In this document: one piece after another, positions 15,115 to 57,469 of the stretch
Layout: each line of letters begins with the position of its first letter
Position numbering within the stretch: position 1 is the stretch's first letter
Source of the DNA: Squalus acanthias
Taxonomy: Eukaryota
Length of the DNA: 64,000 nucleotides
Assembly: GCA_030390025.1 (NCBI GenBank)
Contig: CM059431.1
Location: 150,662,001-150,726,000 of the forward strand
Direction of reading: 5' to 3'
Position numbers and translations under genes: made by a program
The notes under the pieces: model-generated
Databases searched by the model: none
What the model was told of the DNA's origin: nothing
The model's input: the letters and a program-made list of their open reading frames with translations, nothing else

Positions 15115-15192
15115 ATTTAATCAACTTTGAAAAACTTCGCACTCAAACTTTTTGGACGAACTCGGAACTAAGGATCCAGGGAATCACCCATC

Positions 15193-19143: not shown

Positions 19144-19207
19144 CACAATACAGCTTCCTGTGACTCGAACTTCATCCCGGCCTCCTAATCTTTTTGGGGG
19201 GGGAGAA

Positions 19208-30096: not shown

Positions 30097-31884
30097 CTGT
30101 TAGATTTTAATATTTATGGGGATTTTTACTCTGCACCTGCTTCAAGACCAATATAGCCTCCCGGTGCCCAAAACTGAATGAAGCACTCCAGATGGTGTCT
30201 GAACAAGTCTCTGCATAACTGAAGCATGAGGTGCATTGAATACCAGCCCGCTTGAGATGTTGAATTACAAATACATCTTTGTATCAGTATCGTCGATGTC
30301 AATTCAAAATGTTGATGTTTGCCCAGATACTTCACATGGCTGAACTGATACCTTCCCACTCTGTAACCAAATGATTAAAGGTCCATGAAATTTAAACCAG
30401 AATTTAATTAAGTCTCATTATTACATCACAGTGAACCCTAACATACTTGCAGAGCCAATCCTGGCCCAACAACCGAGTGGTACTTTAAGCTGACGTTTAG
30501 TTCCTCGTTGAATAGATAAAGAATAATGGTTAGAATTAGTAGTATATGAAGAGTAACCAATAGAGTACAACATTAGCAGACGTCAGGACAGTCTGATGAA
30601 TGCTTTCCTTACATTGACCCTTTTTGGGTGTAAGAGTGTTAAAGGCCAATATTAAACTATATCTCATCAGCATCATACATCTATCTCGCTCTATTCTTCG
30701 ACCCAGATCTCTACTCATTGCTTTTACCGATATCCTCACTCTCCAGAGTTACATTAATCGTTTACTGTAGCCATGTTGTCAACGTGACCGACCCTGTCCT
30801 GCACCCGTTCTTCAGGGCATATTCATGATGCATATCGCATGCTGGATGCTTCACATGCAACAAGGCACTTCTGCACACAAAGTGATATCCCAAGAACTTA
30901 CAGCAAGAAACATTTCATAAAATACCAACCCTGACACTTCTGGACATCTAGCAAATGATCGGGGTCTTATGATTAGAATCGCTCCCTGCCTGGTCCCTAT
31001 GTTTCGGGATAGGATCGACACAAGCAGACTACTCCCATTAATTGAGGGATCAAGAACTAACGGCCACAGATTAAAGAATAAATGTAAGGGATTTAGAACT
31101 GAGGGTAAGAGAAATATCTCCATGCACGGAGAGTCGTCCGGCTGTGGAATTCACATAGGCAGAAAGTATACAAATATTCAAGATTAAATTGGTTAGATTC
31201 AGGAATAAAAATAGATTGAAGACATGTCGAGGCAGAGCCGGGAACGTGATTCGAACCTTTTGCTCAGGTGGAGGGTGAACGGCGGCAACGACTGGTTGGG
31301 TCGAATGGTCAATTCCCCAGTTATAACATTCCAACATATTGATGACCAGTTGAGATTTTATGTTAGCATCTGTGAACAAAATTATCTAATGTCACATTGA
31401 CGAGTCAGGTTCCTGCTTTCTCCATCATTCGAGACTGATCAGGAGACAATGGGATCGGAGTCTGATGGGGAGATCAGCGCCCGCAAGATTACAGAAGAAT
31501 TAAAATAACCAGGATTGTAAAACCCTTCACTGTTTCTACACTAGATAAAGCTTTATCTGTTAATTCAACTGAGCGTGTCATTTCAGTACCTGCCGTGTTA
31601 GGCAGTTAACGCTGACGCACACATGTTCTACTCCACTGCTGAAGCTCAGCCATGACTGTTCTCTTTGAATCTTGAGCGGGAAGGGCGCTGTTTTAGCGGG
31701 AATCGATTATGTTCACAAGGGAAAAGCTGCAGACTTCAAACACACGGCACAAAGTGGGAATAATATTTCCTGATACCTGTTCATTTTCACAAGAACAATC
31801 CGCTTTTGTCCCAAGGGAAAGATTGCCATCCTAAAACGGAACACGGGCTGTAATTGAGCTCTAGTTAGGACAGGAAGTTATGTT

Positions 31885-32498
31885 TTAATTCTTCATTTTA
31901 TTAACCAATATCAGAATCAATGTCCAGGGAGATTTCACCACCTTCAACAAATCTTGCCTGAATTTGGTTTGTGTCGCGTCTGACTGTCAAACAATTAAAC
32001 AGTAATATCAAAGCAACAGCAAAACCATGGAACTAAAATACTTTGAATGCGGATATAGGCTATGCCTGCAGGCGATGAATAAAAGGCTTCATTGGGGCGG
32101 CATCCCCAGGAAACATTGTTAATGATTCGTTGAGATTGATAGGAGAAAGCAAAGGGGATATTCTCTATACAGACCAGGACAAGGACAGTTGTTAAAACAG
32201 CTGCCGCAGTTCTCCCTGTGCAATAGTTTGTTTTAAACTTCTGACAACATATAGTTACAAATCGGTCAAAAGTGAACAAGACTGTAAACCACACCGACAT
32301 ATCCAGGGTGACGGTATTGAAGTAATGAATCGACTTACACACGGCAGTGTAGGACAGGAATGAATGCGGAAAGTGGTAACAGAAAATGGAAGATGATGAC
32401 CAGTAGATCTGCTGTCGCCATGGCCACCATGTAGATCGAGATACATTTGGAAAGGCCGCAATTTCCTCTGGAGAGAATCAGGATTGTCCGTAGGTTCG
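31885..32498 (-). pseudogene. GPR139/GPR142-like class A GPCR pseudogene, exon 2 (copy 1)
   Basis: Acceptor TTACAG|CGAAC; LDMSVWFTVLFTFDRFVTICC, WGCR and TQTKFR motifs. Contains small deletions/frameshifts and a ~280-bp deletion at ~31978 removing TM6-TM7 relative to copy 2. Confidence 0.88.
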
Positions 32499-32635
32499 CT
32501 GTAAGGAAGAGGGAGAAGAGTTTAGTAACAGGGTCACCCGGATAAACATCACAGCTTATTGTGGGGAATGCTCAGATGTGTGCCTACTTAGCGTTACCTA
32601 CATTGATTTTTTGCCATATAGGCGAGCGTTGAGGA

Positions 32636-33590
32636 GTCAAAGAGCCATACAGACATTACGGCAGAGAGGGAGGGCATTCGGTCCATCGAGTGCGTTCCGG
32701 CTCTCTGTAGAGCACTCCAGTTAGTCTCATCCACCCCCCGCTATCCCCGTAGCCCTACAAGATTATTTCCCTCAAGTGCCTATCCAGTGAGCCCTTCAAA
32801 ACATTGAGTATCTCTGCTTCCACCACTTCCGTCGGCAGTGAATTCCAGGTGTTCACCACTCACTGCATAAAAAAAATTTTCTTCACCACCCCCCTGTATC
32901 TCTTACCCAAAACCTTAAATGTGTGTCCCCTAGTCTTTTTACCATCAACTACTGGGAACAGCCTTTCCCCGTTTAGCCTATCCAAACCCACCATAATCAA
33001 ATCACCGCTCAACCTCCTTTGCTCTAATTAAACAAAATCCAGCTTCTCCAACCTCTCCTTGTAGCCAAGAACCCCCATCCCCGGAAACATTCTGGAAAGT
33101 CTCCTCTGCATCCTCTCAAGGGCCTTCACATCCTTCCTAAAGTGTGGTGATCAGAACTGGACGCAATACTCCAGTTGTGGCCTAACTAGCGTTTTATAAA
33201 GGTTCAGCATAACTTCTCTGCTGTTGTACTCAATACCTCTATTTATGAAGCCCAAGATCCCATATTCTTTGTTAACCACTCTCTCAATATGTCCCGCCAC
33301 CATCAGGGACCTATGCACATTAACTCCCAGGTCCATCTGTCCCTGCACAATCTTTAAAACTGTGCCACTGAGTGTATATTGCCTCTCCCTGTTCCTTCTG
33401 CCAAAATGCATCACCTCACACTTCTTTGTATTAAATTCCATCTGCCACTTGTCTGCCCATTCTGCCAGCCTTTCTATGTCCTGTTGCAGCTACTGTTTGC
33501 CACACCATCAAGTTTGGTGTCATCGGCAAATGTAGAAATTCTACCCTGTATTCCAATATCCAGGTCATTTATATATATCTTAAAAAATTG
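32636..33590 (-). mobile_element. CR1 3' fragment inside the intron of GPCR copy 1
   Basis: MEFNTKKCEVMHFG...LVRPQLEYCVQF; absent from the intron of copy 2. Confidence 0.88.
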
Positions 33591-34086
33591 ATTTAAAAGG
33601 AATGAAACATTGAATATTCAATATGGAGGAACTCAAATTCCGACTCCCTTCCACCATACTTCAGACAGCGGTTAAATATAATTTCGCAGCAATTACTGGA
33701 AATATATGGATTCAATAAAACATTCAGCTGTTGGGTGGAGGTAGCTGCAGTCCGAGCAATTCTCAGCATAAAATAGACAGGGAACCACGGGACAAATGAA
33801 ATAAATGCTATGGACACTAAGCAACACATTCTTTAATGGACTATATACTGTTGGAGGGGCCGTGGAATCAGCCTCGCCCTCCCTCAGTATAGAGAGGGAA
33901 GTTGAGTGTCCCGTGCCCAATATCTGCCGGCCAGAATAGCGCCTAACCGGCCGGGCAAACTGATCGGATTCCCGCTGATATTCACCAAATTATCCCGGTA
34001 GATAAATGATCTTCACGGAATCTGTAACATAATCATTAACAGTGTGTTCGTTAACAACTATTAAACAACAGGATGCATTGACTTAT

Positions 34087-34156
34087 CGAGAATACCAAAG
34101 ATTGCGAGAAAATGATAGTATATGTCCTTTATCTGTAGAATTATTGGCCGTGCCAT
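34087..34156 (-). pseudogene. GPR139-like pseudogene exon 1 (copy 1)
   Basis: 70-nt exon MARPIILQIKDIYYHFLAIFGIL, homologous to 55472-55541; splice donor mutated to ATAAGT. Confidence 0.82.
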
Positions 34157-34233
34157 TTTCAGAAGACTGTGTGAATACTGTCCTGCATTACAGTTCCGAC
34201 TGGCGTTTATCTGAGATCTGTAAATTCTCCCCC

Positions 34234-34239
34234 TTTATA
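34234..34239 (-). promoter_or_regulatory. TATA box of GPCR copy 1
   Basis: TATAAA on the minus strand ~80 bp upstream of the ATG, positionally conserved with 55387. Confidence 0.55.
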
Positions 34240-35898
34240 GAACAATCCGTGCCCTGGTGAGAAAGTGAGTTTACACAATAATTGAACTCAGTTACAGCCA
34301 CTTAACAAACAAGAGGCGATTTCCGCTTCAGTGCGCCCAATGGGGAAATTGTACATCTGAGTCCATGAAACTCCGTCCATTAAAAACAATGAAAGGGAGT
34401 TAATTCCAGAGGGAATGCGCTCTGCACCCGCCATGTGAAACCTGAAGGGAACATCTCTCCAAGTCGCTGTGTTAGCTTCTAAGGGTCTCACATAATTTGG
34501 TGAAATCTTCTCTCATCCATTCCATAAGTAACGCTTTAACGTTACTGTTGACGATCCTGCCCTAACATTACTGGCCGTCACCCTTCTCTAATATTACTGG
34601 TGGTGATCCTACACTAATATTACTGGTGGTAGCCATCACCTAACATTAATGGTGATGTTTCTACTCCAATATTACTGGTGGTGATCCTACACAAATATTA
34701 CTGGTAGTGGCCATCATCTATCATTAATTGTGATGACTCTACTCTAATATTACTATGGTGATCCTACAGTAAGATTACTGGTGATGACCCTAATCTAACA
34801 TTACTGGTGATGAATCAATTCGACAATTACTGGTGGTGAACCTACTCCAACATTATTGGTCATGACTGAACCGAAGATTATTGATGGAGACCCTACACTA
34901 ACATTAATTGTGAAGAACCTCCTCTAACATTACTGGAAGTGACGCTATTCTAACATTACTGGTGGTGACTCTACTCTAACATTACTGCTGGTGACCGCAC
35001 TCTAACATTACTGGTAGTGAATCTACTCTAACATTACTGGTGGGGACTCTAACCGAACATTACTGGTGGTGTCTCTGCTCTAACATTACTGGTGGTGACT
35101 CTACAGTAACATTACTGCTGGAGACCGCACTCTAACACTACTGGTGGTGACCGCACTCTTACATTACTGGTGGTGCCTCTACTCTAACATTGTTGGTGGG
35201 GACTCTACTCTAAAATTATTTGTGGTGAGCCTATTCTAACATTACTGGTACTGACACTAATCTAACATTGCTGATGGTGACTCTAATCAATTATTACTGA
35301 CGGTGACTCTACTGTAACATTGCTGGTATTGACCCAACTCTAACATTACAGGTGGTGACTCTACTGTAACATTGCTGGTATTGACTCTACTCTAATATAT
35401 GTGGTGGGGACCCTATTCTAACGTTAGTTGCGGTGACTGTACAATAACATTGCTGGTGTTGACACTAGTCCAAGATTACTGATTGTGACAATACTCTAAC
35501 ATTATTGGTTGTGACCGCACTCGAACATTACTGTTGGTTAGTCTCACGTTACTGCAGTTTAGCCTACTCTAACATTACTGGTGGTGAACCTATTCTAACA
35601 TTACCGCTGCTGAATCTAATCTATCGTTACTGGTAGTGACTGTACTCAGACATTACTGGTGGTGAACCTATTCTAACATTACTGGTGGTGATCCTGCATT
35701 GACAAAACTGGTGGTGACCCTACTATAACATTACTGCTGGAGATCCCACTCTTACATTACTGATGATGACACTTCTCTAACCTTACTGGCCTGTGGCTCT
35801 ACAATATAATTACTGGTCCTGACCCCACTCTAATATTACTGGTGATGAACATAGATTTACATTACTGGGGGAGACCCGACTCTAACATTACAGGTGGT

Positions 35899-37086
35899 CA
35901 TGATGTGGAGATGCCGGCGTTGGACTGGGGTGGACAAAAATGAGAAGTCGCACAACACCAGGTTATAGTCCAACAGATTTATTTAATTTTACAATCTTTC
36001 GGAGCGGTTCGCTCCTTCCTCAGGTAAGTTAGCAGTGAGAGAATCTCCCAGAATTCACAATTTAAACACAGACAAAATCTATTCAAATGTTTCCCTACAT
36101 CAAAGAGAAACTAAGAGCACAGCCAAGACAATGAGATGTGTCCCAGGGGGTCCAACGTGTCAAACCACCTGCTGGCTGCATATCCTGTCAATTTGTGTTG
36201 GTTCTTGTGTTAGTCTTTTTAAAAAATAACACCTGGGAAGACCGGCCATGATGTCAAGTCACGTTCTGTATCGTGACATGAACCCGATATCGCGATTGAG
36301 GCCATCCTCATGAGTGCGGAACTTGGCTATCAGTTTCTGCTCTATGATTTTGCGCTGTCGTGTATCCCAAAGGCCGCCTTGGAGTACGCTTACCCGCAGA
36401 TCCGAGGCTGAATGCCCCTGGCTGCTGAAGTGTTCCCCGACTGGGAGGCAACCCTCCTGCCTGGCGATTGTTGCGCTGTGTCCGTTCATACGTTGTCTCA
36501 GTGTCTGCATGGTCTCGCCGATGTACCATGCTCTGGAGCATCCTTTACTGCAACGTATCAGGTAGACAACGTTAGCCGAGTCACATGAGTATGTACCGTG
36601 TACCTGGTGGGTAGTGTCCTCACGTGTGATGATGGTATCTGTGTCCATGATTTGGCATGTCTTGCAGAGGTTGCCGTGGCAGGGTTGTGTGGTGTCTTGG
36701 TTGCTGTTCTCCTGAAAGATGGGTAATCTGCTGCGAACGATGGTACTTTTGAGGTTAGGCGGCTGCTTGAAGGCGAGTAGTGGAGGCGTGGGGATGGCCT
36801 TAGCAAGGTGTTCGTCGTCATCGATGACATGTTGAAGGCTGCGAAGAACATGGCATAGTTTTTCCGCTCCGGGGAAGTACTGGGCGACGTAGGGTACTCT
36901 GTTGGTTGTGTCCCGTGTTCGTCTTCTGAGGAGGTCTATGCGGTTTTTCGCTGTGGCCCGTCGGAACTGTCGATCGACGAGTCGAGCGTCATATTCCGTT
37001 TTTACGAGGGCGTCTTTCAGTGTCCGTAGGTGTCCATCGCGTTCCTCCTCGTCTGAGCAGATCCTGTGTATTCGCAGGGCTTGTCC
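35899..37086 (-). mobile_element. Penelope-like element 3' fragment (RT thumb/linker, GIY-YIG endonuclease, terminal region)
   Basis: QALRIHRICSDEE.., SCDSANVVYLIRC..C..WYIGET..LRQRMNGH, VGEHF, EQKLIAKFRTHEDGLN. Confidence 0.92.
35988..36028 (-). ncRNA. Minimal type I hammerhead ribozyme motif in the Penelope terminal region
   Basis: Minus strand reads TTAC-CTGAGGA-A-GGAGCG-AAC-CGCTCC-GAAA-GATT-GTAA: conserved core, 6-bp stem II, stem I TTAC/GTAA. Confidence 0.7.
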
Positions 37087-37742
37087 AAAGGCTGGTGACT
37101 CTGCTCTAACATTACTGAAGTTGACCCTACTCGAACATTGCTGGTGGTGATTCTACTCTGTTATTGCTGGTGCTGAATCTACACGAACATTACTAGTGGT
37201 AATCCTAGTCCAGCAGTACTGGTGTAGACCCCATTCTAACATTACTGGTGCTGAATCGACACTAATATTACTGCTGATGACACTTGTCTAACATTAATGA
37301 TTGGGTCTCTACTCCAACCTTATTGCTCTTGACCATACTCGAACATTGCTGGTGCAGACTCTACACTAACAATACTGGGGATGACACTACTCTAACATTA
37401 CTGGAGGCGACTGTACTCGAATATAACTGGTAGAGACCCTCGTCTAATATTATTGGTTGTGACTCTACTTTAGCATTGCTGGAGGCGACTCTTCTCTAAC
37501 ATTACTGGTGGTGACTCTACTCTAACATTACTGGAAGTGATCCTACTCTAAATTACTGGTGGTGACATTATTCTAGAATTACCCGTGATGATCCTACTCT
37601 AACAGCACCGTTGGTAATTCTACTCTAACATTACTGTTGGTGATTCTACTCTAACATTACTGGTGGTGGCTCTTGTCTAACTTTTCTGATAGTGACACGA
37701 CACGAACATTACTGGTGATGACCTATTCTAACATTACTGGAG

Positions 37743-38730
37743 GTAGGGTGCCCTCGGTGTGAGTACGGGCCTCGTCTCCACAAGGACTGTGCTGTGATCA
37801 CTCCAACAAATTCGTCCAAGCAGAGATGCATCAGGAGGAAGTCAACTGGGATTGCCCCGTGTGGGTTCTCTCACCCACTCCCGCACGCCCAATCTGGCAG
37901 CTGTGTCCTTTAGTGGTGCTACCGATCCGGTCTTGGTGATGGACATTGAAGTCCACGACCCAGACTGCATTCTGCGCTCTCGCTAACCTTAGTGCTTCTT
38001 CCAAGGAGGCGTACTGTTTCATCAGATTAGGGAGTGCGTATGTTGTCAGTCGGAGCTTCCCTTACCCATGTTTTACCTGTTGCCACGAAACTTCATGGAG
38101 TCCGAAATAAATTATGAGGACTCTCAGGGCCACTCCGACCCGACTATAAACTGGAGTACCGCCATATCTGGTGGGTCAGGATAGATCCAGGGATGGAGAT
38201 GGAAGAGAATGGGACATTGGCTGAAAGATATGATTCTGTCAGTATGACTGTGTCAGGCTGCTGTTGGACTAGCCAGTGTGGCAGATCAGCTAATTTTAGC
38301 ACAAGTCCCCAGATATTAGTGATGAGGACTTCGCAGGTTGAATGGGTGGTTTGTGCTTTTATCGTTTCCGAGCCCGATCCGTCCAATTTCATTCTTATTA
38401 TACTCATTTAGAGCGCTTTGATGCAAATTAGTGTCTTCATCGGCCATCTCAGAGGTTAATTAACTGTCACATATAGGCCTTACAGGCTAAGGATGAGAGG
38501 TTTCCTTCCCTACTATCCATTAGTGAACAACTTGCTTTTCTACAATAAACCGATAGCTTCATGTACATCATTCATGATACTTTCATTTTATTAGAGATTT
38601 ATTTAACTAACTGCTTTGAAATTCCCAAACTGCCATGGGGAGGCTCTGGTTTGGAACTCACATCTTCGTATTATTAGTCCCGCCCTCTGAATTACTAGTC
38701 AAGCAACATAACCATTATGCTGCCGTACCC
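37743..38730 (-). mobile_element. 5' fragment of a CR1/L2-group LINE: tRNA-like head followed by AP endonuclease
   Basis: Minus strand starts GGGTACGGCAGCATAATGGTTATGTTGCTTGACTAGTAATTCAG; then TNIWGL...QQQPDTVILTESYL and WVVDFNVHH (APE motifs). Confidence 0.72.
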
Positions 38731-38736
38731 ACGAGA

Positions 38737-41336
38737 GGTCACTGGCAGTAATATCAGTGACTTGTCCTCGCCATTATTGTTAGTGTGGAGTCATCATCAA
38801 TAATCATAGAGTAGGCTCATCAACAGTAATTTCTAGTAGGTTCAACACTGTTAATGTTAGAGTGGAGTCAACACATGTTATGTTAGATGGGTCTCACAAT
38901 CAATAATTTTAGAGTTGAATCTCCACCGGTGATGTTAAAATTGGGCACCACCAGTGATGTTAGAATACAATTAACACCAGTAATATTAGGGTAGTGTAAG
39001 CAGGAACAGTGTCAGATTAGTGTCAGGAACAATAATGCTAGAGTAGGAATAAAGGCCAGTAATGTCAGAGTAAGTTCACCACCGGTGATGTCAGAGTAGG
39101 ATCACCACAAGTATTGTTAGAGTAGAGTCATCACCAGCAATGTTATAGTAGGATCACCTCTAATAATATTAGGTCCGAGTATTGATCAGAACTTGTTATG
39201 TTTTGTTCCAAACAGTAATGTTGCAGTCGGGTGACTACCAGTAACGTTAGATTAGGCTGAAGCCGCAGTGGTGTTAATGCTGAGTCACGATCAGAAATGT
39301 AAGAGTCCGGTCACCACCAGTAACGTTAGAGTAGGGTCACCACCAATAATGTTACAGTAGATTAGCACCAGTATATTTAGAGAATGATAACCACCAGTAA
39401 TGGTAGAGCAGAGTAACCACCAGTAATGTAAAAGCGGAGTAATTAACAGAAAGATTAGAATAGGCTCAGCAACATTAAAATTAGATTAGGTTCACCACCA
39501 GTACTATTAAAGAAGGGTCACTACAAGTAATGTTAGAGTAGGGTCAACACCAGTAATGTTAGAGCAGGTGCACAAAAATAATGTTAGAATAGTGTCACCA
39601 CCAATAATGTTGGAGAATGATTTCCACCAAAAACGTTACAGTAGGGTCACCACCAGTAATCTTAGATTTGATTCACCAGCAGTAATGTTGGAGTAAATTC
39701 ATCAACAGTAATGTTAGAGTAAAATCACACTTCAGTAATGTTAAAGTATAGCCATCACATGTAATGTTAGAGTAGGTTCACCACCAGTAATGTTAGAGTA
39801 GGGTCACTATCAATAATGTTAAAGTAGAGTCACCACCAATAATGTTAGAGTAAGGTCACCACCAGTAATGTTAGAGCAGTGTCACCACCAGAACCGTTAG
39901 AGTTGGGTCACTACCAGTAATGTTGGAGTAGGGTCTCCAACAGTAATCTTACATTTGGGTCACCACCAGTATTGTAAGATAAGCGTCACCACCAACAATG
40001 TTAGAGTGGGATCACCACCAGTAATGGTAAAGTAGGGTCATCACGAGTAATGTTAGAGATTGTTCAACACCATTAATGTTAGATTAGATTCAGAACTTGC
40101 ATTAGAGTAGGGACCCCACCAGTAATATTAGAATAGGTTCACCACTAGTAATTTTATAGTAGCTTCACCACCAGTGATGTTACATTAGATTCATCACTAA
40201 TGTAAGAGTAGGCTCACGACCAGTAATGTTAGAGTAGGTTCACCAGCAGCAAAGTTAGAGTAGATTCACGGACAGTAATGTTAGTGTAGAGTCGCCGCCA
40301 GTAATGTTAGATTCAATTCACCACCAGTAATCTTAGAGTATATTCGCCACCAGTAATTTTAGAATAAGATCACCAGCAGTAATGTTAGAGAAGGGTCACA
40401 ACAAGTAATGTTAGATTAGATTCTCCACTAATGTTAGAGCAGTGTCAACACCAGTATTGTTAGAGTAAGGTCACCACCAGTAAAGTTAGAGTAGATTCAC
40501 CACCAGCAATGATAGAGTAGAATCACATTCCAGAAATGTTAGAATTTAGTCATCACTAGTAATATTACAGTAGAGTCACAATCAGCAATGTTAGTGTAGG
40601 TTCACCAACAGTAATGTTAGAGTAGGGTCACCACCCGTAATGTCAGAGTAGGGTCACCACCAGTAATGTTAGAGTAGGGTCGCCACCAGTAAAGTTTGTG
40701 TAGGGCAACACCAATACTGTTAGAGTAGCGTCACCAACAATAATGTTAGAGTATGGTTACCACCAGTAATGTTACAATAGGGTCACCACCAATAATGTTA
40801 GGTTAGCTTCGCAACCAGTAATGTTAGATTAGCTTCGCCACCAGTAATGATAGTGTAGAGTCACCACCAGTAATGTTAGAGTTGGGCACAACCTATAATG
40901 TTAGAGTAGATTAGCACCAATATAGTTATAGAATGGTAACCAACAGCATTGTAGGTTTGAGAAACCACCAATAATGTTAAAGCAGATTCATCAATAGTAA
41001 GGTTAGAATTGGTTCACCACCATTAATGTTAGAGTAGGTTCACCACCAGTAATGTTAGAGAAGGGTCACCACCAGTAATGTTAGACTAGGATCTCCACCA
41101 GTAATGTTCGATTAGATTCTCCACTAATGTTAGAGTAGAGTCACCACCAGTAATTTTAGAGTAGATTCACCACCATTAATGTTAGAGAAGTGTCACCTCC
41201 AGTAATGTTAGAGTCGAATCACACTCCTGTAATGTTAGAGTATAATCACCACAAGTAATATTATAGTAGAGTCACCAACAGTAGTGTTAGAGCAGGGTCA
41301 CCACCAGTAATGTTAGAGTAGATTCACGACCAGTAA
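38737..41336 (+). repeat. 26-bp minisatellite array, right arm block 1
   Basis: Tandem GTCACCACCAGTAATGTTAGAGTAGR units. Confidence 0.95.
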
Positions 41337-41970
41337 TCCTGTGTCCTCGGCCCAAACATCTTCAGCTGCTTCATCAATGACATTCCCTCCAACATAAGGT
41401 CAGAAATGGGGATGTTCGCTGATGACTGCACAGTGTTCAGCGCCATTCACAACTCCACAGATAATGAAGCAATCCATGCCCTCATGCAAAAGACCTGGAC
41501 GACTTTCAGGCTTCGGCTGATAAGTGGCAGGTAACATTCGCGCCACGGAAGTGCCAGGCAATGACTATCTCCAACAAGCGAAAGTCTAATCACTTCCCCT
41601 TCACATTCAATGGCATTACCATCGCCGAATCCCCCACCATCAACATCCTGGGGGTCACCATTGACCAGAAACTTAAATGAACCAGCTACATAAATACTGT
41701 GGCAACAAGAGCAGGTCAGAGGCTGGGTATTCTGCGGCGAGTGTCTCACCTCCTGACTCTGCAAAGCCTTTCCACCATCTACAAGGCACAAGTAAGGATT
41801 GCGATGGAATACTCTCCACTTGCCTGGATGAGTGCAGCTCCAACAACACTCAAGAAGCTCGACACTATCCAGGACAAAGCAACCCGCTTGATTGGCAACC
41901 CATCCACCACCTTAAACATTCACTCCCTCCAGTACCGGCGTACCGTGGCTGCAGTGTGTATTATCTACAA
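41337..41970 (+). mobile_element. CR1/L2-group LINE 3' fragment, copy 1, 5' half (continues at 51314)
   Basis: VLGPNIFSCFIND..MFADDC and YKAQVRIAMEYSPLAW; nearly colinear with 52691-53672. Confidence 0.88.
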
Positions 41971-43121: not shown

Positions 43122-43195
43122 CAGCTATTCTTACAGTTATTGAGAGCGTGGTGCTAATATCGCTAAGGGCACGGGTTTAATCCCTGGACGGGTCA
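43122..43195 (+). pseudogene. tRNA-Ile(AAT) pseudogene
   Basis: GAGAGCGTGGTGCTAATATCGCTAAGGGCACGGGTTTAATCCCTGGACGGGTCA matches the 3' two-thirds of recalled vertebrate tRNA-Ile(AAT); 5' end degraded. Confidence 0.72.
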
Positions 43196-47010: not shown

Positions 47011-47015
47011 TCCTA

Positions 47016-48277: not shown

Positions 48278-48672
48278 CTGATATCTCGGAGCTCAGGTAA
48301 TGTTAATGTTCTGCTGACGTGTTTATAAACATCTAAAGCTGACACACCAGGGGAGACCTCACAGGGTTGTACACGGAGTGACGTATACTGAAGTTTTTAT
48401 AAGAAGTTACAGAGCACAACATGTGTGTGAAATTCCCCGTGGTTTTCTCGGCACTGATGTGTTGTGAAGGGATGAAGACTGGCCCGAAGTCCCACTGAGC
48501 CGCACTGTAGGTGAAATTATATGAAGTTAAACGAGAGAGCGATAAGAGTTCTGAATCATGGAGAGATTTTCTGATATTGTTGTTGAATTTCATTTACATC
48601 AAGCACTCCTTGGACTCTCTGCCGCAGAATTCAGAGCTGGGGATCCACTTTACAATCAGCAGTAAAAATAAC

Positions 48673-48746
48673 CGCCCAGCGTGGGGCTCGAACACACGAC
48701 CCTGAAAAAAATGAGTCTCATGTTCTACCGACTGAGCTAGCCGGTT
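48673..48746 (-). pseudogene. tRNA-Lys(CTT)-derived pseudogene
   Basis: Minus strand ..CCGGCTAGCTCAGTCGGTAGAACATGAGACTCATTTTTTTCAGGGTCGTGTGTTCGAGCCCCACGCTGGGCG; anticodon arm replaced by a T7 run. Confidence 0.85.
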
Positions 48747-49379
48747 CTATCTGCAACAGTTTTCTCTGTCTGTCTTTATCAGTAAATCGACCGGCCAAAG
48801 CCCGATTGAAAGATGGATTCCTCTCACTGACCGATCATAAATCCCAGATCTTTTGTTATTTCACCTTCTAAAATCAGCCATGATCTCATTGAAAGCCGGA
48901 GCAGGCTCGAAGGGCCGAATAGCCAACTCCTGCTCCTATTTCTTATTAAACATTCACATCCATTTTGCTCAGTATTTGTTTCGCTCTCTTTTTTTATTCT
49001 GTTCGTGCTTGATCTTATAAGCGTTTAACTGTAGTTATTTATTAGAAGGAAGAAATGAACAGAAGTGATTAACTGGAATGGTAGCAGGGATGAGGGACTT
49101 CAGTATGTGGGGGATTGGATAAGCTGGGGTTGTTCTCCTTCGAGCAGAGCTTTTGACAGAGGTGTTTAAAATCATGAACGGGTTTGATATCGTAAATGAG
49201 GAGAAACCTTTTTCCAGTGGCTAAAGAGTCGGTGACCAGAGGACACTGATTGAAGGTGATTGGCAGAAGAATCCGAGGCTACATTAGGAATCATTTTTTT
49301 TAACACTGCGAGTTGTTGGGATCTGGAATGTACTGCCTCAATTCACAATTAAACAGATGCGTCCCAATAAATGAATTAT

Positions 49380-50122
49380 TGGCCCAAAAATTAGTGCCGC
49401 TACGCGAGAGTATACACTGTGTACTCTCGCGTATTCTGTCTCCGATTGCCGTTTTTCTGCATGCACTGCGCATGCGCTGAAAACCGGCACTTGGTGAATT
49501 CAAAAGGGGCGGTTCCTAGGTGAACCGCGTGCGCGCTACAGGCTGCGCGCACGCAGTGCACTTAGTGCTTTGGACGCGCAGGTAAGCATGGAAGATTTTA
49601 GACATAAAGAAAGGAGGTGTAAGACCCTCTTTTAACAAGGTAAGTACTTAATTAAGTATTATTTTGAATTTTTTTTAACAGGTATATCTTTTTTAGAGAC
49701 TTTAAAGACAGGTAAGTTTATTTTTATAACTTTTTAAAAGACTTTAAATTTTTTCAAAAATTTAATTTTTTGTTTAAAATGGTTAATTCATTTAACTATA
49801 CTTATTTTATTAATGTGATGGTTTTTTTTAAATTTAATTGAGGTTTAGCTGTTCTTTTGGGGGGGTATAGTATTCATAGCTTTCACAGCCTTGCTGTGAA
49901 AGCTATGAATGAAAGATGGTGTGCTGCCATTGGCTCTAACTGAGTCACGTGATCCCACAGCTCGCACGAATTAACTAGGCCTGTGGGATACGAAAGCCCT
50001 GCACAGCTGCTGTCCAGAACATCAAGTTCGTGCGAGCTCGGACTGAAAAAGCCAGCGCGCAGTGAGAGATCGCGGGAAGGCCTTACCCTCGCACGAAGGC
50101 TCACTCACTAATTTTTGGGCCA
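49380..50122. mobile_element. Non-autonomous DNA transposon (~740 bp) with AT-rich centre
   Basis: Perfect 17-bp TIR TGGCCCAAAAATTAGTG / CACTAATTTTTGGGCCA. Confidence 0.8.
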
Positions 50123-50262
50123 TAAATTCAGATATATCAACAGACACTTGCAACTTGCAGAGATAATAAACATTTACATCGAACACAAGTCATGAATACA
50201 TTTGTATCTAGCGGGAATTTAGCCAGTATATTTACAGCTCTCACAGCTGCTGGGTGGAGCGT

Positions 50263-50324
50263 TCCTTGGTGGGCCAGGGGTTGGAATTCGGTGCAACCAG
50301 AATACGGGTTTGATTTCCTGTCTG
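50263..50324 (+). pseudogene. Degraded tRNA-Glu-like pseudogene
   Basis: TCCTTGGTGGGCCAGGGGTTGGAATTCGGTGC...CGGGTTTGATTTCCTGTC resembles recalled tRNA-Glu; anticodon arm lost; T-run follows. Confidence 0.5.
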
Positions 50325-50602
50325 ATTTTTATAAATCAGTTGTGCAGTTCATTAAATCAATTACATGAACATATAATTAAAGGCAGTATCACGATGAATA
50401 ATTGTTTTAATCGCCATTAATAAACCGGTAACTTTCTGTTGCAGACAAGAGGAAATGTTAGCATGCTGGCCGAATGAGAGTCAGACTTCAGTATGTATTT
50501 GTGATGTGCCTTTATCCGTTCCATCCCAAAGGATTGCAGCACTTTCCAGCCAGAAGCAACCAACCTCTGGGGACCATCAGATAACATTTTGTCATTTAAA
50601 AA

Positions 50603-50676
50603 ATGCCCCGTTGGGCATCGAACACAGGCTCTTCTGTATATTAGACAGGCGCTTTGACCAGCTAAGCCACGGAGCC
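50603..50676 (-). pseudogene. tRNA-Thr(AGT)-type body with AAT at the anticodon position, probable pseudogene
   Basis: Minus strand GGCTCCGTGGCTTAGCTGGTCAAAGCGCCTGTCTAATATACAGAAGAGCCTGTGTTCGATGCCCAACGGGGCA followed by a T-run terminator. Confidence 0.85.
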
Positions 50677-51313
50677 AACTCACGACTGAAAGCTTTCTCC
50701 TCCCCTCTCTGATATCTGGTACCTGTGGTATCGCGTTCCACATTCCAAACACTCTTTGCATAAACAAGTTTTTCCTGAATTCACGACTGGATTTATTACT
50801 GAGGATCTTATAATAATGACATTTAGTTTTACTTAGTATGACACAAGAGGACTGGCGGCTGCGGTTGTATAAAACCCACTGTCAAAGAGCCACACTCCGT
50901 ACATGCACACCTGAGGTTGTATAATAGTGGGGACACTGGTGAAGATTGTTCAATTGAGGGGGCACTAATTGGGTACATATGATAGAGTGGAGCAGTACTT
51001 GCCGTTGTGCGGTAGTGAGGTGGGAAATATTATTGTGAGTTTCTCTGGAGCTGATTTTTCGGCCCAGTTGATTTGCTCCTTCCAGAAAACCAACCCGCCC
51101 TCCATCCACGGCAGGTTTTCACTTCCATCAGCTCATCCCCAAAACCCAGCTTTAAACAGCAATAAAAATAGTGGAACCACACGGCGGGTCATTCAACATC
51201 AGTGGAGACAACAGACACGCTTATTTTAGGGGTTTGGAACTTTTTTTCACGGACCACCTGCAGTACCCTCGTGGACCACTGGTGGGCCGCGGACCACAGA
51301 TCGGGAACCACTG

Positions 51314-51668
51314 ATCTACAAGATGCACTGCAGCAACTCGCCAAGGCTTCTTCGGCAGCACCTCCCAAACCCGCTACCTCTTCCACCTAGAAGGACAAGG
51401 GCAGCAGGCGAATGGAAACACCACCACCTCCGAGTTCCCCTCCAAGTCACACACCATCCTGACTTAGAAGTATATCGCAGATCCTTCATCGTGGCTGGGT
51501 CAAAATCCTGGAACTCCCTACCTAACAGCACTGTGGGAGTGCCATCACCACGGACTGCAGCGGTTCAAGAAGACGGCTCACCACAACCTTCTGAAGGGCA
51601 ACTAGGGATGGGCAATTAATTCTGGAATTGCCAGTGACGCCCTGGTCCCATAAAGGAATAAAAACAAA
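51314..51668 (+). mobile_element. CR1/L2-group LINE copy 1, 3' half
   Basis: Resumes IYKMHCSNSPRLLRQHLPNP; A-rich tail. Confidence 0.88.
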
Positions 51669-52690
51669 TGTTAGATTAGGTTCACCTCAAGTAATATTAG
51701 AGTAAAGTCACCAAATGTAATGTTCGAGTAGGATCATCACCATTAATGTTCGAGTAGAGTCACCACCAGTTGGAGTAGGTTCAGCACCAGTATTATTAGA
51801 GTAGGGTAACTTCCAGTAATGATAGAGTAGGGTCACCACCAGTAATGTTGGAGTAGGGTCATCACCAGTAATGATAGATTAGGGGCACCACCAATAATGT
51901 TAGAATAATGTCACCTCCAATAATGTTACAGAATGGTTACCACCAGTAACGTTACAGTAGGGTCACCACCAGTAACGTTAGAGTATGGCCACCTCCAGTG
52001 CTGTAGAGTAGATTCACCAACAGTACTTTTAGAGTATATACAACACCAGTAATGTTAGAGTGGGGTCACCACCAGTAATGTTGGAGTAGGGTCACCATCA
52101 GTAATGTTAGAAAATGGTCACCACCAGCAATGATAGATAAAGGTCACCACCAGAAATGTTAGAGGAGGGTCACCACTATTAATGTTAGAGTAGAGTCACC
52201 ACCAGTAATATTGGAGTTCACCACCAGTAATGTAAGTGTAGGGTCACCATCAGTAATGATAGAGTCGGGTCACCACCAGTAATGTTAGAGTAGAGCGCCA
52301 CCTATAATGTTAGAGTAGATTAGCACCAATATAGTTATAGAATGGTATCCAACAGTAATGACAGGTAGAGAAACCACAAATAATGTGAAAGCAGATTAGA
52401 TTAATCTCACCACCATTAATTTTAGATTAGATTCACCACCATTAATGTTCGAGTAGGTTCACCTCCAGTAATGTTAGTGTCGAATCAATACCTGTAATGT
52501 TAGAGAATAGTCACCAAAATTAATATTATAGTAGAGTCAGCACCAGTAGTGTTAGAGCAGGGTCACCACCAGTAATGTTAGTGTGCGGTCACCACTAGTA
52601 ATGTCAGAGCAGGGTCACCACCAGTAGGGTTACAGCAGGGCCAACACCAGTAATGTTAGTGAAAGGTCACCACCAGTAATGTTAGAGTAT
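51669..52690 (+). repeat. 26-bp minisatellite array, right arm block 2
   Basis: Same monomer; shares diagnostic variant units with 40890-41330. Confidence 0.95.
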
Positions 52691-53672
52691 TCCTGTGTCC
52701 TCGTCCCAAACTCCATCAGCTGCTTCATCAATGACATTCCCTCCAACATAAGGTCAGAAATGGGGATGTTCGATGATGACTGCACAGTGTTCAGCGCCAT
52801 TCATAACTCCACAGATAATGAAGCAGTCCGTGCCCTCATGCAACAGGACCTGGACGACGATCAGGCTTGGGCTGATAAGTGGCAGGTAACATTCGCGCCA
52901 CAGAAGTGCCAGGCAATGACTATCTCCAACAAGCGAAAGTCTAACCACATCACCTTCGCATTCAATGGCATTACCAGTGCCGAATCCCCCACTATCAACA
53001 TCCTGGGTGTCACCATTAACCAGAAAATTAATTTAACCAGCCAAATAAATAATGTGGCAACAAGAGCAGGTCAGACGCTAGGTATTCTGCGGCGAGTGTC
53101 TCACCTCCTTAATCACCAAAGCCTTTCCACCATCTACAAGGCACAAGTAAGGAGTGTGATAGAATACTGTCCACTTGCCTGGATTAGTGCAGCTCCAACT
53201 ACACTCAAGAAGCTCGACACTATCCAGGACTAAGCAGCCCGCTTGATTGGCACCCCATCCACCACCTTAACATTCACTCCCTCCACCATCGGCGTACAGT
53301 GGCTGCAGTGTGTACCATCTACAAGATGCAATGCAGCAATTCGCCAAGGCATCTTCAGCAACACCTCCCAAACCCGCGACCACTTCCACCTAGAATGACA
53401 AAAGCAGCAGGCGCATGGGAATACCACCACCTCCGAGTTCCCCTCCAAGTCACACACTATTCTGACTTAGAATTATATCGCCGAAACTTCATCGTCATGG
53501 GTCAACATCCTGGAACTCCCAACCTAACAGCACTTTGGGAGTACCATCAACACACGGACGGCAGCGGTTCAAGAAGACGGCTCACTACAACCTTCTGAAG
53601 GGCAACTAGGAATGGGCAATAAATGCTGGCATTGCCACTGACATCCGGATCCCATAAAGGATTTTAAAAAAA
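52691..53672 (+). mobile_element. CR1/L2-group LINE 3' fragment, copy 2 (no hAT insertion)
   Basis: Same 5' truncation point (TCCTGTGTCCTCG) as copy 1; single ATCTACAA at the hAT target position (~53317). Confidence 0.9.
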
Positions 53673-55060
53673 TGTTAGATTAGTGTCACCTCAAGTAATA
53701 TTAGAGTAGAGTCACTAACAGTAATGTTAGAGTAGGATCATCACCATTAATGTTCCAGTAGAGTCACCAGCAGTAATGTTAAAGTAGGGTCACCACCAGT
53801 AATGTTAAAGAAGGGTCACCACTAGTAACGTTAGAGTAGAGTCAGCACCAGTATTGTTAGAGTAGAGTCACCACCAGTAATGTTAGACTAGAGTCACCAG
53901 AAGTAATATTAGTATTGAGTCACAACCAATAATGTTAGAGTAGAGTCAGCAGCAGGAATGTTAGAATACGTTCATGTCCAGTAATTTTAGAGTAGATTCA
54001 CCATCAAAAATGTTAGAATAGAGTCACCACCGGTAATGTTAATGTAGAGTCACCACCACTAATCTTAGAGTAGAGTCACCACCAGTAATGTAGAGTAGAG
54101 TCACCAACAGTAATGATAGATTAGAATCAGCAGCAGTAATCTTAGAGTAGAGTCACCACCAGTAATGAAGAGTAGAGTCATCAACAGTAATTTAAGAGTG
54201 GACTTACCACCGCTAATGATAGTGCAGAGTCACCACAAGTAATGTTTGAGTAGAGTCAAAACCAGTAATTTTCGAAAAAAGTCACCACCAGTAATGTTGG
54301 AGTAAATTCGCCACCAGTAATGTTAAAGTAGAGTCACCAACAGTAATGTTAGTGCAGAGTCACCACAAGTAATGTTAGAGTAGAGGCACCACCAGTAATG
54401 TTAGAGCAGAGTCACCACCAGTAATGTAGAGTAGAGTCACCACCAGTAATGTGAGTAGAGTCACCACCAGTAATGTTCGAGAAAGGTCACCACCAGTAAT
54501 GTTAGAGTAGAGTCACCACCAGTAATGTTAGAGTAGTCACCACCAGTAATGTGAGTAGAGTCACCACCAGTAATGTTCGAGAAAGGTCACCACCAGTAAT
54601 GTTAGAGTAGAGTCACCACCAGTAATGTTAGAGTAGTCACCACCAGTAATGTTAGAGTAGAGTCACCACCAGTAAGGTTAGAGTAGATTCACCACCAGTA
54701 ATGTTAGAGTAAAGTAACCACCAGTAATGTTAGAGTAAATTCGTCACCAGTAATATTAGAGTAGAGTCACCACGATTAATGTTAGAGTAAAGGCACCACC
54801 AGTAATGTTAGAGTAAAGTAACCACCAGTAAGGTTAGTGTAGAGTCACCACGATTAATGCTAGAGTCGAGTCACCACCAGTAATGCTGGAGTAGTATCCC
54901 CACCAGTAATGTTAGAGTAGGTTCACCACCAGTAATGTTAGAGTAGGTTCACCACCAGTAATGTTAGAGTAGGTTCACCACCAGTAATGTTAGAGTAGAT
55001 TCACTACCAGTAATGTTAGAGTAGGTTCACCACCAGTAAGGTTAGAGAAGGGTCACCTCC
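53673..55060 (+). repeat. 26-bp minisatellite array, right arm block 3 (most homogeneous)
   Basis: Near-consensus GTCACCACCAGTAATGTTAGAGTAGA monomers. Confidence 0.95.
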
Positions 55061-55386
55061 ATTTATCATCATGGAGCAAACCTAAATTTAACTTTCTAGT
55101 GGATGAGTTAAGATTTCACGAATCATTACGAGGATCAAGTAACCGAACGCAGTGCCCGTGTGGGAAGTTCCCTTTGGGGATCAGGGTGCTTGTGCACAGT
55201 ACACTCCATCTGCTATGAGTTCCCGTTCATTAATTTGAATTGATGAGTTTCATGAGCTGATTTGTAAAATGTACCCTTTGTTGTCCCAGGCACACTGAAG
55301 CGGAACATCTTGCCTTGTTGGTTTAGTGACTGTAAGTGACGCCAATTGTCGTGTGACTAATATTTTCACCGGGGCACCGAGTATTC

Positions 55387-55393
55387 TATAAAA
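55387..55393 (+). promoter_or_regulatory. TATA box of GPCR copy 2
   Basis: TATAAAA ~85 bp upstream of the ATG, with CCAAT at ~55342; position conserved in copy 1. Confidence 0.55.
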
Positions 55394-55471
55394 GGACAGT
55401 GTTTATGGATCGCATGTACACTCTGACGCTAGCCATACTGCCGGACAGAAGTCACATATTCTTCGAAAAAA

Positions 55472-55541
55472 ATGTTGCTGCCAACAATTCAAATGGTCAG
55501 CATCATTTACTATCCAGCTCTCGCAGCCTTTGGCATTCCCG
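55472..55541 (+). pseudogene. GPR139-like GPCR exon 1 (copy 2)
   Basis: MLLPTIQMVSIIYYPALAAFGIP then canonical G|GTAAGT donor (phase 1, within TM1). Confidence 0.85.
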
Positions 55542-56373
55542 GTAAGTCAGTTAATCCTGTTGTCTAATGGCTGTTGACTATCTCAGTGTTAATGATTATG
55601 TAATGATTCCTAGAATGTCCTCATTGCAGAGTCACTTATCCATCGGGATAAGTTGGTGAATGTCAATGGGAATCCAACCAGTCCACGCGGCTGGTGCGGC
55701 TGGTCGGTAGATCGTGGGTGCCGGGCGCTCGCCTTTGCTCCCTGTACTGAGGGAGGGCGAAGCTGACATGCCCCGGCTCCTCCAACAGTATAGAGATCAC
55801 TACAGGATGTGTTGCTTCCTGTGGATAGTAATCACATCAGTTGTACACTTGTACCCTGTTTATTTTACGTTGATAATTGCTCGGACTGCAGCCACCTCCA
55901 TCAAAGAGGGGACTTTGAAAGATACTTTCAGCAATAGTTGCCGCTCAGGAGCTGCTCCACTCCCCTCGGCTCCAAAGAACATTCGCGTCTCCACCAGCTC
56001 CCGCTCTGTTACCGAGCAGCTCCCCCACCCTCCCAGGGCGATTGTACATAGAAAAAGCGCAGAGTTTCGACCTAAATTCAATTATGTTCTCGCAACTGAA
56101 TGCTTCGTTTGAATTTATATCTTTGCAGTAATTGCTGTGAAAATATACTTGATATTTGTCGATGTGTGTCTGAAGTCTGCAGGGAAGGGCGGCGGATTTT
56201 CAGTCCCTCTATATTGATTGTTCAAAGTTTTTTTTAAAAAAGCTCTTCGTTAACGCTCGCCTATATAATTAAAAATCCGCCTGCACAGGGACACATCTGC
56301 ACATTTCCCCACAATATGGTGTGAGATTTATCGACTGTGCCCATTACTGACCGCTTGTCACTCTTTCTTACAG

Positions 56374-57275
56374 CGAACCTACTGACAATCGTGATTCTCT
56401 CCGGAGGAAAATGTGGTCTATCCAAATGTATCTCTGTCTACATGGTGGCCATGGCAACAGCAGATCTACTGTTCATGATCGTCAATGTGCTGCTGTACCG
56501 TGTTTTTACATATCACTTTCCAAAGTCATTCCTCAGTTAAACTGCCGCCTGTAGGTTGCTTATATACTTGAATGCTGCTGCCCTCGATATGTCCGTGTGG
56601 TTTACCGTCACCTTCACATTCGACCGCTATGTCGCGATAAGTTGTGAGAAGATTAAAACGAAATATTGCACAGTCAGAACTGCGGCCGTCGTCATAACAA
56701 CGGTCTCTGTTCTGCTCTGCTTGGACAATATCCCCTATTCGTTTGCATATGAAACTGACCGAATAATTAACAATATTCACTGGGGTTGCCGCTTGAAAAT
56801 TGGCTTTTTTACCACGTCTGTTGGTACAGCATTCATCTGGTTAGAAAGTGTTTTAAGTGTAGGGCTTCCTTTCGCTTTGGTATTACTGTTTAATTGTTTG
56901 ACAGTCAGACGTATTTTAGTGGCCAGTAGAGCCCGCAGGAGTCTCCGGGGTCACAGCAGTGAGAATCAGAGCGACCCAGAGATGGCGAGCCGGAGGAAAT
57001 CCATCATTTTACTGTTCAGTGTAACAGGCAGTTTTATAGTGTTGTGGCTGACATGTATCGTTAGTTATGCAATTAACACCCTGGTCATTTTTGATCGTAG
57101 CGATTATACATCTCCTGCATACATCGCCTCTGCGACCGGATTTATGCTCATGTATTTGAGCTCCTGTACAAACATGTGCATTTATGCAGCGACCCAAACC
57201 AAATTCAGGGAAGAGCTGGTGAGATTAGTGAAAGCTCCCTGGACATTGATTCGGAACTTGGTTAACAAAATATGA
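56374..57275 (+). pseudogene. GPR139/GPR142-like GPCR exon 2 (copy 2), intact except one nonsense codon
   Basis: Acceptor TTACAG|CG; ANLLTIVILS, AMATADLL, FDRYVAI, RRKSIILLF, TNMCIYAATQTKFR. In-frame TAA at 56538-56540, where copy 1 has TAC (Tyr). Confidence 0.9.
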
Positions 57276-57469
57276 AGATCAAACCAGAGCTTCCTATCCT
57301 AACTAGAGCTTAATTGCAGATCGTATTCAGTTTAGAATGGCCTTCTTTCAGTTGGGACGAAAACCAGATTATTGTTGCGAAAATGAACAGGTATCAGGAA
57401 ACATTTCTTCCATTTTGTGCCGTGTGTTTGATGTCTGCTGCTTTCCCCGGGTGTACATAATCGTTTCTA

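What the first reader, a model, noticed from the sequence alone, without database searches (positions are those of the whole stretch)
31680..57460. Inverted duplication of a satellite-promoter-GPR139-like receptor cassette
Seen: two divergent GPCR copies share exon 1 (70 nt), the phase-1 intron, intron sequence, 3' flank (~31700-31880 vs ~57290-57450) and promoter. Each has the same 26-bp array starting ~300-330 bp upstream of its TATA box, in mirror orientation. Established: mammalian GPR139 is an amino-acid-sensing class A GPCR with an intron in TM1. Inference: the minisatellite is part of the amplified unit and may promote birth-and-death expansion of this receptor family, or act as its upstream regulatory element.
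Basis: partly seen in the sequence, partly recalled or inferred. Interest (0 to 1): 0.72.

Follow-up and report, generated by a model that had tools for sequence, protein, structure and literature searches.

The report
Satellite-led shark receptor pseudogenes, head-to-head
Two old, broken copies of a large shark-and-ray receptor gene family sit back to back, each with the same 26-base repeat array just in front of its promoter; the repeat looks inherited with the gene rather than proven to control it, and the two copies are not a recent mirror duplication of each other.

Summary
The anatomy is real. Two two-exon class A GPCR copies face outward (A on -, B on +). They share promoter, 70-nt exon 1, phase-1 intron, intron sequence and 3' flank at 67-84% identity. 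Each has a 26-bp array ending 298 or 326 bp before its TATA box, in the same sense as the gene.

Three corrections. (1) Both copies are broken. (2) They are not sister products of a local inverted duplication: B groups with a sawshark protein, and an AU test rejects A+B (p 0.005). (3) 'GPR139-like' is an automatic label. The family is a shark/ray expansion related to single-copy amphibian and sturgeon genes, only distantly to GPR139, and it lacks most of the Trp/Phe pocket.

The array is best read as an ancestral part of the duplicated gene unit, mostly decaying. It has undergone one unequal exchange of its own. A regulatory role is not shown.

The scan noted the same cassette 193 kb away (e1-7939187). 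I found no paper on the receptor expansion or on the cassette in six searches.

The parts
31700..31884 (-). 3' flank of copy A, homologous to 57279-57467
   Evidence: 158/191 identical over 31700-31892 vs 57276-57467
31885..32498 (-). Copy A exon 2 remnant: 17-nt deletion and a 1-nt indel (frameshifts), about 278 nt missing (TM5 end to TM7)
   Evidence: alignment; tblastn; Pfam 7tm_1 E 1.3e-5, below cut-off
32499..34086 (-). Copy A intron, 1588 nt, donor reads AT instead of GT, carries an inserted LINE fragment (about 32640-33600)
34087..34156 (-). Copy A exon 1 coding part, 70 nt, phase 1
34157..34520 (-). Copy A promoter and 5' leader, TATAAA at 34239
   Evidence: 246/361 identical to B
34537..35898 (-). 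26-bp array, proximal to A, about 52 units
35899..37092 (-). Insertion in the A array, Penelope-like (GIY-YIG-type motif recalled from memory; no Pfam hit)
   Evidence: ORF 36259-37152; Pfam negative
37093..37744 (-). 26-bp array, distal part of the A array, about 25 units, ends abruptly on well-kept units
37745..38737 (.). Centre of the mirror: about 1 kb, not palindromic, holds a probable LINE endonuclease remnant
   Evidence: self-inverted score 25 vs shuffled mean 25.5; PF14529 E 0.03, below cut-off
38738..41337 (+). 26-bp array, distal part of the B array, about 97 units, fading at its outer end
   Evidence: outer fifth 72.5% to consensus
41338..41970 (+). LINE fragment copy 1, first part
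   Evidence: 92% to 52700-53324
41971..51313 (.). 9.3-kb insertion with 11-bp terminal inverted repeats and an 8-bp target duplication (hAT-type by these marks), filled with nested LINE pieces
   Evidence: target duplication at 41963 and 51314; no transposase ORF recognised
51314..51666 (+). LINE fragment copy 1, second part
   Evidence: 88% to 53317-53661
51667..52689 (+). 26-bp array, middle part of the B array; hybrid of the units before and after the LINE
   Evidence: unit order matches the distal array (0 of 200 shuffles) and weakly the proximal array (4 of 200)
52690..53670 (+). LINE fragment copy 2, uninterrupted
   Evidence: 886/976 identical to the two parts of copy 1; RVT_1 E 1.3e-6, below cut-off
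53671..55061 (+). 26-bp array proximal to B, about 54 units, the most homogeneous
   Evidence: 85.7% to consensus
55100..55471 (+). Copy B promoter and 5' leader, TATAAA at 55387
55472..55541 (+). Copy B exon 1 coding part, 70 nt, GT donor intact
55542..56373 (+). Copy B intron, 832 nt
56374..57278 (+). Copy B exon 2; full-length frame (323 codons with exon 1) with one premature TAA at 56538-56540
   Evidence: Pfam 7tm_1 E 1.6e-14
57279..57467 (+). 3' flank of copy B

Best explanation
An ancestral member of this receptor subfamily acquired a 26-bp tandem array about 300 bp upstream of its TATA box. The family then grew by segmental duplication, and each duplicate carried array, promoter, two exons and 3' flank together. 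A and B are two old paralogues from different branches that now lie head to head, through an old inversion or rearrangement in the cluster. The mirror image of the arrays simply follows from the opposite gene orientations. Since then the arrays have mostly decayed by point mutation, collected transposon insertions and undergone local unequal exchange. Both genes have died, A long ago and B by one stop. Shown: shared anatomy, non-sister relationship, pseudogene lesions, one array-internal duplication. Inferred: co-duplication as the origin, the inversion, and generality across the family.
For: Same orientation and 298/326-bp spacing in both copies. Homology is continuous from the array edge to the 3' flank. 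B is sister to P0001 (97/95) and A+B is rejected, p-AU 0.0047. Units are 80-86% identical to the consensus, and pairwise unit identity is about the same within arrays (67-75%) as between arrays (68-72%). That matches the 68-83% identity of the neighbouring non-coding DNA, as expected for arrays about as old as the A/B split. One LINE-plus-array block was duplicated inside the B array (LINE copies 886/976 identical, shared junctions; unit order 0 of 200 shuffles). Contigs from related organisms align from the last unit into the promoter (X1 records 1 and 2; X7 record 25). Relatives cluster on single chromosomes (11 of 11 listed catshark and 15 of 26 listed horn shark proteins share one contig length).
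Against: Only two copies were read in full; no genome was available. The A and B arrays share no detectable unit order (168, 23 and 146 of 200 shuffles reach the observed score). This fits arrays that were young at duplication or have turned over, but it gives no direct proof of co-duplication. The bridging contigs have only 21-26 laid letters on the array side, below the tool's 31-letter rule, because I supplied only one unit. The 5' intron and 3' flank differ less (0.27, 0.20) than synonymous sites (0.51), so some non-coding constraint or gene conversion is not excluded.
Confidence: 0.72

Rival explanations
1. The array actively drives the family's birth and death: it provides long homologous tracts for unequal crossing-over, inversion and conversion between paralogues (compatible with the best explanation, but a stronger causal claim).
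For: One unequal exchange inside the B array is documented. The A array ends abruptly on good units next to a LINE remnant at the mirror centre. About 7.0 kb of the 21.1 kb between the TATA boxes is array.
Against: The documented exchange duplicated a LINE, not a gene. No gene-duplication breakpoint could be placed in an array. The A and B arrays show no homogenisation with each other.
Confidence: 0.3
2. The array is a cis-regulatory element (multimerised factor site, enhancer, silencer or nuclear anchor) that controls expression or one-gene-per-cell choice in this receptor family.
For: Fixed distance and orientation kept over a synonymous divergence of 0.51. The proximal B units are the best kept (89% in the last fifth). 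The unit holds a TAAT core, as homeodomain sites of olfactory receptor enhancers do (recalled; the paper was not held).
Against: Both genes here are dead. The TAAT columns (0.87-0.94) are not clearly better kept than the other A/T columns (0.80-0.92), and the proximal fifth of the A array is its worst (79%). Spacing is explained by co-duplication alone.
Confidence: 0.17
3. A recent local inverted (fold-back) duplication copied one cassette into the other.
For: Mirror arrangement with satellite arrays facing each other across a 1-kb centre.
Against: Identity is only 67-84%. 44 of 121 proteins are closer to A, and 23 of 121 closer to B, than the copies are to each other. The AU test rejects sisterhood. 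The centre is not palindromic.
Confidence: 0.05
4. The satellite is a common dispersed repeat that landed independently before both genes.
For: No genome-wide test could be run.
Against: All 103 matches in 64 kb lie in arrays that point into the two promoters, and homology between the cassettes starts within about 40 bp of the array edge.
Confidence: 0.04

Closest known systems
Beta-satellite / KRAB zinc-finger gene cluster of human 19p12 (Eichler et al. 1998, Genome Res 8:791; I saw only the title in reference lists; content recalled; lead taken from e1-7939187)
   Same: A satellite array repeated together with members of a tandemly expanded gene family and proposed to help the expansion.
   Different: Here the unit is an unrelated 26-mer, the gene is a GPCR, and the array sits at a fixed 300 bp from a TATA promoter in a fixed orientation.
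Mammalian GPR139/GPR142 (PMC7318219 passages; PMC5430874 abstract)
   Same: Best match among solved structures for the family profile (E 5.5e-21); two exons; similar start of TM1.
   Different: True orthologues are 70-96% identical across vertebrates, whereas this family matches only distantly (45 bits for P0003; B's 244-residue exon-2 frame does not hit it at E 0.001). The Trp/Phe pocket is mostly not kept. The family is multi-copy.
Non-mammalian GPR139/142-like receptors, named GPR210A/B in coelacanth, gar and fishes (PMC6504862 passages)
   Same: The nearest non-shark relatives found are coelacanth, teleost, sturgeon and amphibian proteins labelled 'probable GPR139'. The amphibian/sturgeon group is sister to the shark family (SH-aLRT 99, quick tree).
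   Different: The amphibian group shows one cluster per species among the 25 hits, while sharks and rays have many. I did not have the GPR210 reference sequences, so the identity with GPR210A or B is not tested.
Automatic RefSeq/UniRef models 'probable G-protein coupled receptor 139' of sharks, rays and skates
   Same: Same family: 118 of the 120 listed hits are named and all come from 15 shark, ray or skate species, 52-74% identical.

Membership tests
Class A (rhodopsin-like) GPCR | 7tm_1 domain above Pfam cut-off | tested here: met
   Copy B 54.4 bits vs cut-off 30.5; copy A fragment 25.3 bits, below cut-off
GPR139 orthologue | About 70% or more identity to human GPR139, as in zebrafish | tested here: not met
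   Distant match only: 45 bits for P0003; no hit for copy B exon-2 frame
GPR139 orthologue | Pocket residues E108, F109, H187, W241, R244, N271 | tested here: not met
   Kept in 0, 11, 35, 117, 1 and 0 of 120 family members (which corrects a mis-set N271 column)
GPR139 orthologue | Two exons with the intron in TM1 | tested here: inconclusive
   Two exons in both; the position of the human intron is recalled, not checked
GPR139 orthologue | Activation by L-Trp or L-Phe | not testable with these tools
   Needs a cell assay with an intact paralogue
Elasmobranch-expanded 'probable GPR139' family | Nesting among shark and ray members in a tree | tested here: met
   Both copies fall inside the shark/ray clade, SH-aLRT 99
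Local inverted duplication (fold-back pair) | The two arms are each other's closest relatives | tested here: not met
   p-AU 0.0047; group named before the tree was seen
Local inverted duplication (fold-back pair) | Mirror homology through the centre and collinear array units | tested here: not met
Satellite-gene cassette (19p12 type) | Array accompanies most paralogues genome-wide | tested here: inconclusive
   2 of 2 in the window; contig hints in related organisms; no genome
Satellite-gene cassette (19p12 type) | Duplication breakpoints fall in the arrays | tested here: inconclusive
   One array-internal duplication of a LINE block; no gene breakpoint mapped
Cis-regulatory tandem repeat | Effect on transcription or factor binding | not testable with these tools
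   Needs chromatin and reporter data
hAT transposon (41971-51313) | Short terminal inverted repeats and 8-bp target duplication | tested here: met
   a transposase was not recognised

The most novel reading that the evidence does not exclude
Sharks and rays carry an unrecognised repertoire of many short class A GPCRs with variable ligand pockets, serving as chemosensory or immune sensors and making up for their very few OR, TAAR and V1R genes. Each gene of this subfamily is preceded by an oriented 26-bp array that works as a built-in enhancer or nuclear anchor for one-gene-per-cell choice and also fuels the family's turnover.
Probability: 0.1. Interest if true: 0.85.

Novelty: new variant of a known kind. 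Interest (0 to 1): 0.42.

Why it matters
The locus itself is two dead genes, so it matters as a window on two larger things. First, a receptor family that is single-copy in amphibians but has many members in sharks and rays, with hypervariable pocket positions, seems to be hidden under a misleading automatic name. Published shark chemosensory repertoires list only 5-8 genes in each of the OR, ORA and TAAR families (PMC6368271 abstract), so its tissue of expression is an open and easily tested question. Second, a satellite fixed at one distance and orientation before each promoter gives a natural experiment, across many paralogues, on whether such repeats are passengers, recombination engines or regulators.

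Tried and rejected
Genome-wide mapping: no genome is held for this window. Satellite pattern in viral contigs: 0 matches. Family alignment against metagenome contigs: 1 locus of 176 candidate stretches, 31% identical and without the repeat, so no shark DNA was obtained. Sequencing runs: no RNA holder listed; this says nothing about expression. Contig depth was not used as a copy number. No loose ends near the array edge were among the 24 shown (806 not shown). Coding role for the array: the translated consensus repeat has stops on both strands and no meaningful match in 268 family proteins. Structured RNA: Rfam gives only one tRNA-like match at 50603-50676 in 31000-58000. Collinear unit order between the A and B arrays: none by an offset test or a unit-level alignment. 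A Helitron-type carrier was considered by eye and rejected: the 3' homology ends at unrelated repeats and no shared end motif is seen. The 56-row careful tree and its AU test did not finish; the test was run on 22 rows (20 of the 120 hits, chosen as the nearest to A or B plus two outgroups). The homologue set came from a B query; an A query returned largely the same top hits. One search scored the wrong column for N271; one search corrects it. Look-ups in the scan's index by sequence, by neighbourhood and by relatives found nothing. Literature: searches gave no paper on this expansion (listings read, not all texts); one search gave none on this satellite; the 24 supplements of PMC8455134 hold no 'GPR139'; the supplement of PMC11979771 could not be read and may hold expression data. 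Eichler 1998 and the olfactory enhancer paper were not held.
Full report
Setting. The window is shark-type DNA: a search with the long open frame of copy B returned 736 proteins at E 1e-10 or better among 1614 candidates; of the 120 listed, 118 carry names and all come from 15 shark, ray or skate species, 52-74% identical. I did not see the other 616.

Copy A lies on the minus strand (exon 1 34156-34087, exon 2 from 32498) and copy B on the plus strand (exon 1 55472-55541, exon 2 56374-57278). Both have a 70-nt first exon and a phase-1 intron. Homology runs from about 40 bp inside the array edge through promoter (246/361), exon 1 (47/70), intron (271/351, 100/126, 96/125), exon 2 (398/521, 71/85) and 3' flank (158/191). 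The TATA boxes at 34239 and 55387 are 298 and 326 bp from the array edges. The 26-mer occurs 103 times with up to 3 mismatches, only in five array pieces, against none in 100 shuffles. The A-side pieces are on the minus strand and the B-side pieces on the plus strand, so each array has the same sense as its gene.

Both genes are broken. Copy A has AT for GT at the donor, a 17-nt deletion, a 1-nt indel, about 278 nt missing from the end of TM5 to TM7, and a LINE in its intron. Copy B has intact splice sites and one premature TAA at 56538-56540. At 56540 every laid contig of four public runs reads C (6, 9, 5 and 5 contigs). Those runs differ from B at many other positions too, so they hold relatives, not B itself; the stop is recent or private, or an assembly error.

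It is not a local inverted duplication of one copy into the other. The proteins are 138/222 identical; over the shared columns B ranks 45th of 121 among A's relatives and A ranks 24th of 121 among B's. B pairs with P0001 of Pristiophorus japonicus in all three trees (SH-aLRT 99; 97/95). Holding A and B together costs 37 log-likelihood units, p-AU 0.0047 (22 rows). Whether P0001 is an orthologue from another species or a paralogue, B has a closer relative than A. The 1-kb centre is not palindromic (score 25, shuffled mean 25.5) and holds a probable LINE endonuclease remnant (E 0.03). dS is 0.51 and dN 0.27 over 177 codons, so the split is old and part of the history was under purifying selection.

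What the arrays have been doing. In 262 units, identity to the consensus is 80-86% per array, and pairs of units are about as alike between arrays (68-72%) as within them (67-75%). This is the divergence of the neighbouring DNA and looks like one old amplification followed by decay, with some renewal next to B. No shared unit order links the A and B arrays (168, 23, 146 of 200 shuffles reach the score), while the same test finds the duplication inside the B array (0 of 200; 4 of 200 for the second junction). That duplication is clear in the sequence: a LINE fragment in the array occurs twice with the same junctions (886/976 identical), and the first copy was later split by a 9.3-kb insertion with terminal inverted repeats and an 8-bp target duplication. 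So the array does undergo unequal exchange, but the event seen copied a LINE and not a gene.

Is the link general? Here 2 of 2 copies have the array, and they belong to different branches, which points to an ancestral link. I laid contigs of four runs on the last repeat unit plus gene B at 80% likeness: 1183, 1863, 521 and 1023 contigs were laid. Of the 32 pieces shown (4617 not shown), X1 records 1 and 2 (organism A) align from the first base of the unit into the promoter with 30 and 13 differences and run past the end, and X7 record 25 (organism C) aligns from 55041 to 55936 with 123 differences. Only 21-26 letters could be laid on the array side, under the tool's 31-letter rule, so this is a hint. 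A second hint: a Heptranchias gene model (P0071) begins with five 16-residue repeats in front of exon 1, whose possible DNA resembles the 26-mer in the same sense (1 of 60 and 8 of 300 shuffles reach the score; noticed first, tested afterwards). An earlier agent reported the same cassette 193 kb further along this genome (e1-7939187); I could not check its wider claim and do not count it as evidence.

The receptor. Human GPR139 is the best solved-structure match of the family profile (78 bits; next 55.5), but a salamander protein scores 224 bits, a coelacanth one 210 and a teleost one 193. The salamander protein has one close cluster in each of 19 other amphibian species listed and one in sturgeon, and this group is sister to the shark family (SH-aLRT 99, quick tree with long branches, no GPR139 in it). 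True GPR139 orthologues are 70-96% identical (PMC7318219, passages). Of the pocket residues named there and in PMC5430874 (abstract), E108, F109, H187, W241, R244 and N271 are kept in 0, 11, 35, 117, 1 and 0 of 120 members, and five of the six positions vary widely. A survey of vertebrate GPCRs names non-mammalian relatives GPR210A/B (PMC6504862, passages; sharks are not mentioned). So the family is GPR139-related but not GPR139, and amino-acid sensing cannot be carried over. Many short paralogues in clusters, with pseudogenes and variable pockets, is the pattern of sensory or immune receptor families (inference). Published catshark repertoires cover OR, ORA, TAAR, V2R and taste receptors (PMC6368271 abstract; PMC11979771 passages), and the top 50 genes of a brain and olfactory library there included no GPCR, which gives no support for an olfactory role.

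Mechanism and rivals. Most likely (0.72) the array is an ancestral passenger of the duplicated unit, and the mirror arises from an old rearrangement that set two paralogues head to head. An active role in expansion is possible (0.3) and compatible. A regulatory role is not excluded (0.17): spacing is fixed, but the TAAT core is not clearly better kept than other A/T columns and the A array is worst next to its promoter. A recent fold-back (0.05) and independent insertion (0.04) are unlikely.

Novelty. A satellite travelling with an expanding gene family has a precedent in the beta-satellite/zinc-finger cluster of human 19p12 (title seen; content recalled). I found no paper on this receptor expansion or its cassette (searches; supplements; one supplement unreadable); subscription journals are mostly not covered. 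Verdict: a real, old cassette, a new variant of a known kind. The headline of an inverted duplication of GPR139-like amino-acid receptors does not stand. The undescribed receptor family is the better lead. Interest 0.42.

Noticed in passing
P0071 / P0331 (Heptranchias perlo models), residues 1-78: Five 16-residue repeats precede the normal exon 1; probably a translated upstream tandem array, weakly like the 26-mer in the same sense (8 of 300 shuffles).
   Followed up: partly
window 1330-2160 and 5254-5895 (+): Two coding blocks of a core-2/I-branching glycosyltransferase gene (Pfam Branch), separated by long ATTC/CATT microsatellites.
   Followed up: no
window 14921-19401: An LTR retroelement with nearly identical LTRs (192 of 194 between 14921-15114 and 19208-19401) and gag-pol frames broken by stops, inserted in a LINE.
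   Followed up: no
window 41971-51313: 9.3-kb insertion with short terminal inverted repeats and an 8-bp target duplication; 42000-44700 holds sequence without a second copy in the window, including a GC-rich block near 43850-44730.
   Followed up: partly
window 55542-55908 and 57279-57467: The first 350 bp of the intron and the 3' flank differ less between A and B (0.27, 0.20) than synonymous sites (0.51), and contigs pile up at 55528-55609 and 57414-57470; possible conserved non-coding elements of the family.
   Followed up: partly
window 50603-50676 (-): tRNA-like Rfam match (33.7 bits), probably the head of a SINE.
   Followed up: no
window 138-436: A 91-bp GC-rich tandem repeat, 3.3 copies, 93% matches, each unit with a GTGAGT donor-like word, upstream of the glycosyltransferase gene.
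   Followed up: no
window 61012-61587 (+): A 191-codon cysteine-containing frame without a Pfam match, next to a LINE.
   Followed up: partly
P0210 and P0281-P0300: An apparently single-copy GPR139-related gene in amphibians and sturgeon, mislabelled 'probable GPR139', is the nearest non-shark relative of the family.
   Followed up: partly
family alignment, TM6: The TM6 proline of class A receptors (6x50) is threonine in 110 of 120 members.
   Followed up: no
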